A DNA stretch of 63,087 bases, filler included, from Collodictyon triciliatum (taxonomy: Eukaryota), in assembly GCA_043381765.1 (NCBI GenBank). It is 47 parts of 47 records of this genome, joined end to end, with 100 filler letters (N's around TTAATTAATTAA, not from the genome) between each part and the next. Parts side by side here need not be neighbours in the genome. Positions count along the whole stretch, not along the records: positions 9,448 to 10,696 come from JBHJMP010011701.1; 46 more parts are not named here. The stretch is one strand, 5' to 3'. Position numbers and translations under genes: made by a program. The notes under the pieces were generated by a model. It had not been told where the DNA came from and searched no databases. It was given only the letters and a program-made list of their open reading frames with translations. Numbering within the stretch: position 1 is the first letter of the stretch; every line of letters begins with the position of its first letter. This document shows, piece by piece, positions 9,448-9,776 of the stretch.

Positions 9448-9776
9448 GAAAGCCTCGTGCAATACAGCTTCCTGAACAGCCTGCTGAAACACGCTCGCAT
9501 TCTTCGCTACTCTGACCGCAAGCGAAGAGAGATGTGGGAATGTGTCGTAAGATATCTCCCACAACATATCCAACCCCTGCTACCCACACAACCAATCAAC
9601 CAGTTGGGACGCCCACCTGACCAGCTCGTTATCACTGACTTCTTTCCAGTGCTACCCTCTCCACAGTAGTGTCTTCCCCTACTCGCGTTTGCTCTCTACC
9701 ATGCGCACTTATCTCGCCCCTTTGTATGGCATGACCCCGCTGCACTTTGAATCGAATAAAGGAAGAAGAAAAAAAA
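9448..9776 (+). mobile_element. LINE family A 3' end (ORF2 C-terminus, 3' UTR, AATAAA, GAA/A tail)
   Basis: SFLNSLLKHARILRYSDRKRREMW...QLVITDFFPVLPSPQ* is homologous to the 7606-7998 ORF2 tail; ends GCACTTTGAATCGAATAAAGGAAGAAGAAAAAAAA. Confidence 0.8.

What the first reader, a model, noticed from the sequence alone, without database searches (positions are those of the whole stretch)
9622..9645. LINE ORF2 ends in a canonical PCNA-interacting PIP box, conserved across two diverged families
Seen: QLVITDFF (9622-9645), QLAITDFF (10385-10408, minus) and QFLITDYF (7704-7727, minus) lie 7-12 residues before the ORF2 stop, while the neighbouring residues have diverged. Established: the PIP consensus is Q-x-x-[ILM]-x-x-[FY]-[FY] (p21 QTSMTDFY); human L1 ORF2p has a PIP box, but between EN and RT. 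Inference: these LINEs tether to PCNA through a p21-like C-terminal tail, possibly independently evolved replication-fork or repair coupling.
Basis: partly seen in the sequence, partly recalled or inferred. Interest (0 to 1): 0.75.

Follow-up and report, generated by a model that had tools for sequence, protein, structure and literature searches.

The report
Retrotransposon protein with PCNA-binding tail motif
Several related jumping genes (LINE retrotransposons) of an unnamed eukaryote end their main protein with a short conserved motif that usually grips the cell's DNA sliding clamp (PCNA), a position unlike the sites described in human LINE-1; binding is untested.

Summary
The three motifs are at the stated coordinates, 7, 7 and 14 residues before a stop. 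The window is 47 unrelated ~1.24 kb contigs, so no tail is joined to a reverse transcriptase here. Database relatives give most of the link: two carry a zf-RVT zinc knuckle (CX2CX8HX4C) followed by the same tail, ending QTAITDFF and QSVITNFF. The tails are therefore very likely L1/Tx1-type ORF2 C-termini. Across four diverged families the motif is 31/48 pairwise identical, against 30/165 in the preceding linker. Its consensus positions are kept (21/24) and its free positions 2-3 are not (1/12). Two models put it in a low-confidence tail after the folded domain. Best reading: a p21-like, TD-type PIP box tethers ORF2 to DNA-loaded PCNA during insertion (0.7). Binding is not shown, no single EN-RT-tail ORF was found, and the taxonomic range is unknown. 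PCNA use by mobile elements is known (human L1, pogo). Human L1 is now reported to bind through a non-canonical wrist site. A C-terminal PIP on a LINE ORF2 was not seen in five literature searches. Verdict: new variant of a known kind.

The parts
9448..9669 (+). Copy 1 (family A): last 73 codons and stop of a LINE ORF2; cut by the contig edge at 9448
   Evidence: tblastn to zf-RVT-bearing P0006, 46% over 72 aa, E 1e-13
9622..9645 (+). PIP box QLVITDFF (TD type), 7 residues before the stop
9670..9776 (+). 3' UTR of copy 1, about 100 nt, with AATAAA (9755-9760) and an A8 run (9769-9776)
   Evidence: similarity to copy 2 ends just after AATAAA
10071..10152 (-). tRNA-Ser(CGA) gene lying between the two tail-to-tail LINE copies
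   Evidence: ARAGORN; Rfam RF00005, 66.3 bits
10266..10360 (-). 3' UTR of copy 2 with AATAAA (10270-10275); no A run
10361..10591 (-). Copy 2 (family A): ORF2 tail and stop; homology to relatives ends near 10591 (probably 5'-truncated; 10592-10696 matched none of the six queries)
10385..10408 (-). PIP box QLAITDFF, 7 residues before the stop
7659..7998 (-). Copy 3 (family B): ORF2 C-terminal helices and tail, frameshift near 7901, cut by the contig edge
   Evidence: 90% and 100% to P0004 in two frames
7704..7727 (-). PIP box QFLITDYF, 14 residues before the stop; Arg at +4 (7692-7694) completes the PIP-degron pattern in this copy only
7606..7658 (-). Short 3' UTR of copy 3 ending in an A9 run (7606-7614)
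27161..28216 (+). APE endonuclease N-terminus of a LINE ORF2 on another contig; not linked to the tails
   Evidence: Pfam Exo_endo_phos E 9.1e-20
11776..12045 (+). Second APE endonuclease start, following an ORF1-like frame; not linked to the tails
   Evidence: Pfam Exo_endo_phos E 4.4e-8; 76% nt identity to the 27161 copy over 148 bp
15471..16034 (+). RT fragment, L1/Tx1-like; not linked to the tails
   Evidence: Pfam RVT_1 E 3.6e-9; relatives include an EN-RT-zf-RVT ORF2, P0015
54626..55054 (+). Overlapping RT fragment of the same family as 15471; not linked to the tails
   Evidence: Pfam RVT_1 E 3.8e-13; 91% nt identity over 101 bp

Best explanation
These are the 3' ends of L1/Tx1-type non-LTR retrotransposons whose ORF2 carries an extension beyond the usual end of the zinc-knuckle C-terminal domain: a variable linker, a conserved Q-x-x-I-T-[DN]-[FY]-F PIP box, then 7-14 residues. 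Shown: the sequence, its position after zf-RVT in relatives, its selective conservation, and a low-confidence (probably flexible) tail in two models. Inferred: the tail docks in the PIP pocket of host PCNA loaded on DNA, as p21 or FEN1 tails do (recalled). This would tether ORF2 at replication or repair DNA and help target choice, or the hand-over to RNase H2, polymerase and ligase after first-strand synthesis. It would be this lineage's way of doing what the wrist PUB site is reported to do in human L1.
For: Motif in frame in 3 of 3 window copies and 4 of 6 LINE-related database hits. Four family representatives: motif 31/48 pairwise identity; consensus positions 1,4,7,8 21/24; positions 5-6 9/12; free positions 2-3 1/12; linker 30/165; residues after the motif 12/42. 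This is the profile of a PIP box and not of general conservation. TD at positions 5-6 (TN in one family) is the form described for PIP degrons such as p21 (PMC8871960 passages). zf-RVT lies directly upstream in P0006 and P0008, with the CX2CX8HX4C spacing given for non-mammalian L1 (PMC5381506 passage). Models: pLDDT under 50 for residues 238-253 of P0006 (motif 237-244) and 175-197 of P0008 (motif 183-190). In both structural alignments to human ORF2p the motif begins at or beyond the human C-terminus. The PCNA interaction is reported as required for human L1 retrotransposition (PMC6068448 passages).
Against: No binding or activity data. No single ORF holding EN, RT and this tail was found. 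Two of 6 LINE-related hits lack the intact motif in frame: P0004 lacks one aromatic residue, and P0011 reads in the shifted frame; these may be dead copies, but their age is unknown. The human L1 'canonical PIP box' was accepted for years and is now reported not to be the predicted binding site, so a consensus match can mislead. Low pLDDT from 5-7 sequences may reflect a shallow alignment. The structural match to human ORF2p is weak: rank 1, Z 7.8 for one model but rank 43, Z 6.1 for the better model. The four families share ancestry, so they are not four independent gains.
Confidence: 0.7

Rival explanations
1. The motif is a short amphipathic helix that packs back on ORF2 itself (for instance on RT or the wrist) and resembles a PIP box by coincidence, as now appears likely for the human L1 PIP helix.
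For: Both models draw a short helix over the motif (H234-241, H182-190). The human PIP helix packs on palm and fingers (PMC10830420 passages), and PCNA is reported to bind elsewhere.
Against: The human helix is internal; this one is terminal, behind a linker only 18% identical. Invariant Q and the T-[DN] pair fit PCNA-pocket chemistry better than generic packing. Other L1/Tx1 ORF2s end without it (P0015, P0016), so the fold does not need it.
Confidence: 0.12
2. The tail is a real linear motif but binds another host factor that accepts PIP-like two-aromatic motifs, such as the Rev1 C-terminal domain or Mlh1 (cross-reactivity recalled, not from a call).
For: Recalled overlap between PIP, RIR and MIP motifs; no call bears on it.
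Against: Q at position 1 and I at position 4 are invariant in 4 of 4 families; these are PCNA-pocket determinants that the other motifs do not need (recalled).
Confidence: 0.08
3. The motif is a PIP degron: ORF2 bound to DNA-loaded PCNA is destroyed by CRL4-Cdt2, limiting the element's activity in S phase or clearing the protein after insertion.
For: Copy 3 has TD at 5-6 and Arg at +4, the degron definition in PMC8871960. TD is present in 3 of 4 families.
Against: A basic +4 residue occurs in 1 of the 7 sequences with an intact motif; the others have P, P, P, H, L, P. Position +3 is not basic in copy 3. Whether the host has Cdt2 is unknown.
Confidence: 0.06
4. The tails are not LINE ORF2 ends, or the motif is a chance match.
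For: No RT linkage in the window; the window tails alone match no Pfam family; 10 other stop-free matches to the pattern occur elsewhere in the window.
Against: zf-RVT in frame upstream in two relatives; profile match to the C-terminus of an EN-RT-zf ORF2, E 0.0017 but probability only 15.6; short 3' UTRs ending in AATAAA and/or an A run; pN/pS about 0.29; selective conservation in four families.
Confidence: 0.04

Closest known systems
Human LINE-1 ORF2p and PCNA (PIP helix at about 404-419; wrist PUB motif, Ghanim et al. 2025, PMC7617806)
   Same: L1-type ORF2 with a zinc-knuckle C-terminal domain; proposed use of PCNA during target-primed reverse transcription.
   Different: The human sites are internal, and the newer one is non-canonical. 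Here a canonical TD-type PIP box lies in a terminal extension starting at or past the position where human ORF2p ends. Binding is untested here.
Drosophila pogo, human Tigger and Arabidopsis Lemi1 transposases
   Same: Mobile-element enzymes with a conserved PIP box; pogo was found as a PCNA interactor (review PMC5371812, passages).
   Different: DNA transposases, not retroelements; the review calls the functional relevance unclear. Their C-terminal position is recalled, not read in a call.
p21, Cdt1 and Set8 PIP degrons
   Same: Q-x-x-hydrophobic-T-D-aromatic-aromatic core in a disordered region.
   Different: The basic +4 residue is present in only 1 of 7 intact motifs here; these are host regulators, not transposon proteins.
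Other L1/Tx1-type ORF2s (P0015, P0016)
   Same: zf-RVT and the following helices align, including the last conserved Trp.
   Different: They end 19 and 8 residues after that Trp with no PIP match; these elements continue for 36-46 residues and carry the motif.
Dictyostelium TRE5 and TRE3 tRNA-gene-targeted L1-clade elements
   Same: LINE copies on both sides of a tRNA gene at 9448-10696.
   Different: TRE5 lies 44-54 bp upstream in opposite orientation and TRE3 40-150 bp downstream in the same orientation (PMC5911963 passages). Here the upstream copy has the same orientation at about 115 bp and the downstream copy the opposite orientation at about 295 bp. One locus only.

Membership tests
L1/Tx1-type LINE ORF2 | C-terminal CCHC zinc knuckle (zf-RVT) in frame with the tail | tested here: met
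   Met in relatives P0006 and P0008 (Pfam PF13966, E 8.5e-9 and 4.2e-6; CX2CX8HX4C). The window copies do not reach that region.
L1/Tx1-type LINE ORF2 | N-terminal APE endonuclease and central RT in the same ORF as the tail | tested here: inconclusive
   EN and RT pieces lie on other contigs; no protein joining them to the tail was found.
L1/Tx1-type LINE ORF2 | C-terminal domain fold like human ORF2p | tested here: inconclusive
   9hdo_A rank 1 of 48,161 (Z 7.8, rmsd 4.1, 164 aligned) for the P0006 model; rank 43 (Z 6.1, rmsd 5.4, 161 aligned) for the P0008 model. These Z values are within background for helical proteins. Foldseek gave no match at E <= 0.001.
L1/Tx1-type LINE ORF2 | 3' UTR ending in an A-rich tail, with target-site duplication | tested here: inconclusive
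   A8 after copy 1, A9 after copy 3, none after copy 2. The 5' ends of copies 1 and 3 are off-contig; no duplication was seen by eye around copy 2.
L1 clade versus Tx1 clade | RT phylogeny against named references | not testable with these tools
   Only 6 unnamed RT relatives at 25-32% identity were returned.
Canonical PIP box | Q-x-x-[ILM]-x-x-[FY]-[FY] | tested here: met
   3 of 3 window copies and 4 of 6 LINE-related hits. The stricter form quoted in PMC5371812 (F at position 7) is missed by the family B sequences, which have YF like some known boxes.
Canonical PIP box | Lies in an exposed, flexible or terminal region | tested here: met
   7-14 residues from the C-terminus; pLDDT under 50 over all or nearly all of the motif in two models built from shallow alignments.
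Canonical PIP box | Binds PCNA, dependent on the aromatic pair | not testable with these tools
   Needs a bench assay or a model with a eukaryotic PCNA; neither was obtained.
CRL4-Cdt2 PIP degron | TD at positions 5-6 | tested here: met
   6 of 7 intact motifs; TN in P0008.
CRL4-Cdt2 PIP degron | Basic residue at +4 | tested here: not met
   Present in 1 of 7 intact motifs (copy 3 only); not a family feature.
TRE-type tRNA-gene-targeted elements | Fixed distance and orientation to tRNA genes (TRE5 opposite, about 50 bp upstream; TRE3 same, 40-150 bp downstream) | tested here: not met
   Both copies have the reverse orientation and other distances; single locus.

The most novel reading that the evidence does not exclude
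This LINE lineage gained a canonical, p21-like PCNA-binding tail separately from the internal site of vertebrate L1. PCNA tethering would then be a function that L1-type ORF2 proteins have solved at least twice with unrelated, modular motifs. The tail might substitute for the human PUB site and so separate PCNA recruitment from ORF2 folding. One family may also have turned it into a Cdt2 degron that limits its own activity.
Probability: 0.4. Interest if true: 0.72.

Novelty: new variant of a known kind. Interest (0 to 1): 0.52.

Why it matters
How and why LINE ORF2 uses PCNA is unsettled. The long-cited human PIP helix is part of the fold, so mutating it confounds binding with structure, and a different, non-canonical site has since been reported. 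A LINE family with a separable terminal PIP box would allow a clean test of what PCNA does in retrotransposition: fork targeting, processivity, or RNase H2 and repair hand-over. It would also be sequence evidence that clamp tethering is selected repeatedly in non-LTR elements, as reviewed for transposases. The limits: the general idea is established, the lineage is known from a handful of fragments, and its host group is not identified.

Tried and rejected
Search with the copy 2 tail for longer proteins: 0 of 61 candidates scored. Search with the zf-RVT plus tail profile for proteins of 444-2000 aa: 0 of 3997. Search with the window's RT pieces: 6 of 2409 scored, none ending in this tail or matching the PIP pattern; only 2 of the 6 (P0015, P0016) reach the zinc knuckle. 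Three of the 9 hits of the representative search (P0009, P0010, P0012) were repetitive, unrelated proteins and were dropped before all counts. Bacterial and archaeal genomes: 17 pattern matches, 0 confirmed. PDB sequences: 2 matches at E 1.6 and 2, both noise. Foldseek: nothing at E <= 0.001. Atlas: zf-RVT clusters for the whole of P0006 (score 0.96, recognition below the tool's threshold); only leads under 0.9 for the tail alone. A PCNA-tail complex prediction returned no model; this is no evidence either way. Cluster sources and names of the relatives could not be obtained, so whether P0006, P0008 and P0011 come from the same organism is unknown. TRE-type tRNA targeting was considered and rejected on geometry. 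A family-wide degron was rejected (1 of 7). The independence estimates (1e-9 to 7e-5) are crude, ignore shared ancestry and are not relied on. Literature: (listings of 4, 14, 3, 20 of 24, and 14 papers) showed no title or abstract start describing a C-terminal PIP box in a non-LTR ORF2; most were seen only as listings. Subscription journals and repeat databases are not covered, and the supplement of PMC7617806 (PUB conservation across species) was not read. Metagenome and viral contig collections stayed unchecked.

Full report
Setting. The window is not one locus. It is 47 contigs of about 1.24 kb joined by N and TTAATTAATTAA spacers, from a microsatellite-rich eukaryote at about 36% GC. Neighbouring pieces are unrelated, so linkage between a tail and an RT cannot be read from the window.

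Observation. The three octapeptides are at the stated coordinates, with 7, 7 and 14 residues to the stop. The copies at 9622 and 10385 are one family (89.5% over 313 bp), lying tail to tail on one contig around a tRNA-Ser(CGA) gene. The copy at 7704 is a second family, 23 of 73 residues identical to the first. The pattern alone is weak evidence: it has 13 stop-free matches in 116,974 six-frame positions. The frame of the tails is coding and constrained, with pS 0.22 and pN 0.063 between copies 1 and 2 and stops in the other two frames of that strand.

What the tails are. The window tails match no Pfam family. A profile of the three, read against 1.84 billion representatives, gave 9 hits; 6 are relatives and 3 are repetitive noise. 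Two relatives reach upstream into a zf-RVT knuckle (P0006, E 8.5e-9; P0008, E 4.2e-6) with the CX2CX8HX4C spacing that PMC5381506 gives for non-mammalian L1 (passages). They align to the window copies at 33-46%, and weakly to the end of an ORF2 that holds EN, RT and zf-RVT (P0015; E 0.0017, probability 15.6). The window also holds APE and RT fragments of this type on other contigs. A model of P0006 had human LINE-1 ORF2p as its top match among 48,161 chains (Z 7.8, rmsd 4.1, 164 aligned, residues 26-227 on 1067-1267). The better model, of P0008, ranked it only 43rd (Z 6.1, rmsd 5.4, 161 aligned, 1-183 on 1086-1272), so the fold evidence is consistent but not decisive. Together these make an L1/Tx1-type ORF2 C-terminus very likely. 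No single protein with EN, RT and this tail was found.

The motif. It is intact in 3 of 3 window copies and 4 of 6 relatives: QLAITDFF (P0005), QFLITDYF (P0007), QTAITDFF (P0006) and QSVITNFF (P0008). P0005 and P0007 belong to the window's two families. P0004 lacks one aromatic residue. P0011 reads ISFQCY there, which is the shifted frame of the same codons in copy 2. With one representative for each of four families, pairwise identity is 83/180 in the last helices, 30/165 in the linker, 31/48 in the motif and 12/42 after it. Within the motif the consensus positions score 21/24, positions 5-6 score 9/12 and positions 2-3 score 1/12. That is the profile expected of a PIP box under selection. 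In both models the motif falls in a terminal stretch with pLDDT under 50 after the last long helix, drawn as a short helix, and it begins at or beyond the position where human ORF2p ends (length 1275). The two RT relatives that reach the zinc knuckle end without it, so it looks like an added tail.

How it most likely works. Shown: position, conservation and probable flexibility. Inferred (0.7): the tail binds the PIP pocket of DNA-loaded PCNA and tethers ORF2 at replicating or repairing DNA, aiding target choice or the steps after first-strand synthesis. For human L1, PCNA is proposed to bring RNase H2 (PMC6068448 and PMC10830420, passages) or to locate suitable target DNA (PMC7617806, passages). 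Rivals are an intramolecular packing helix (0.12), another partner for PIP-like motifs (0.08, recalled), a Cdt2 degron (0.06) and chance or a non-LINE origin (0.04). The degron pattern, TD plus a basic +4 residue (PMC8871960, passages), is complete only in copy 3, 1 of 7 intact motifs.

Against what is known. Mobile-element proteins that bind sliding clamps are established: pogo, Tigger and Lemi1 carry PIP boxes, and several bacterial transposases bind the beta clamp (PMC5371812, passages). Vertebrate L1s keep the internal PIP-like box, but PMC7617806 reports that human ORF2p binds PCNA through a non-canonical wrist site. This cuts both ways: a consensus match is not proof, and a terminal canonical box would be a different solution. 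Five searches showed no description of a C-terminal PIP box in a non-LTR ORF2. Most hits were seen only as listings, and subscription journals, repeat databases and supplements were not covered. All eight papers opened (PMC7617806, PMC10830420, PMC5371812, PMC5911963, PMC8871960, PMC13103738, PMC5381506, PMC6068448), and a ninth (PMC5006619), were seen as term-matched passages, not whole texts.

The tRNA gene. Two of the three tails flank one tRNA gene, about 115 bp upstream and 295 bp downstream, with both 3' ends facing it. This is the reverse of TRE5 and TRE3 geometry (PMC5911963; distances also in PMC5006619). One locus cannot show targeting, but it deserves a genome-wide check.

Verdict. 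A real, selectively conserved, canonical PIP box ends the ORF2 of a small, poorly sampled LINE lineage. Function and independent origin are untested, and the host range is unknown. It is a new variant of a known kind; interest 0.52.

Noticed in passing
window 9448-10696: Two family A LINE copies flank a tRNA-Ser(CGA) gene tail to tail (about 295 bp downstream, 115 bp upstream); the geometry is the reverse of Dictyostelium TRE5/TRE3. Possible new tRNA-gene preference, or chance.
   Followed up: partly
window 7692-7727 (-): Copy 3 carries the full PIP-degron pattern (TD plus Arg at +4); the other families do not.
   Followed up: partly
window 10592-10696: About 105 bp upstream of copy 2 matched none of the six ORF2 queries; a 5' truncation junction or a different repeat.
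   Followed up: partly
window 10797-11810 (+): A low-complexity ORF1-like frame, overlapping the start of the EN frame, contains a relaxed PIP-like string QTNIASFM at residue 142; a single copy, may be chance.
   Followed up: no
window 47118-48358: Contig with a packaging-ATPase-like ORF (Pfam Pox_A32, E 2.3e-6; Polinton- or virus-like) and an internal inverted repeat of about 300 bp at 79% identity.
   Followed up: partly
window 49799-51038 and 59174-60411: Two contigs 89.5% identical over 1.2 kb in opposite orientation, with no long ORF; an unidentified repeat family.
   Followed up: no
window 20231-21477, 26972-28216, 16190-17436: Further LINE ORF1/EN pieces: 20231 and 26972 share 330 bp at 92% across the ORF1-ORF2 junction; 16198-17139 (-) is an ORF1-like frame with no Pfam match above cutoff.
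   Followed up: partly
window 4055-5302 (+): P-loop NTPase fragment with weak STAND/NACHT matches below cutoff (best E 6.1e-5).
   Followed up: no
window 8099-9347 (+): Intron-split host gene that resembles nicalin by eye (recalled; no Pfam match above cutoff for the first exon).
   Followed up: no
window 564-636 (-): tRNA-Ile(AAT) gene with no LINE tail detected on its contig.
   Followed up: partly
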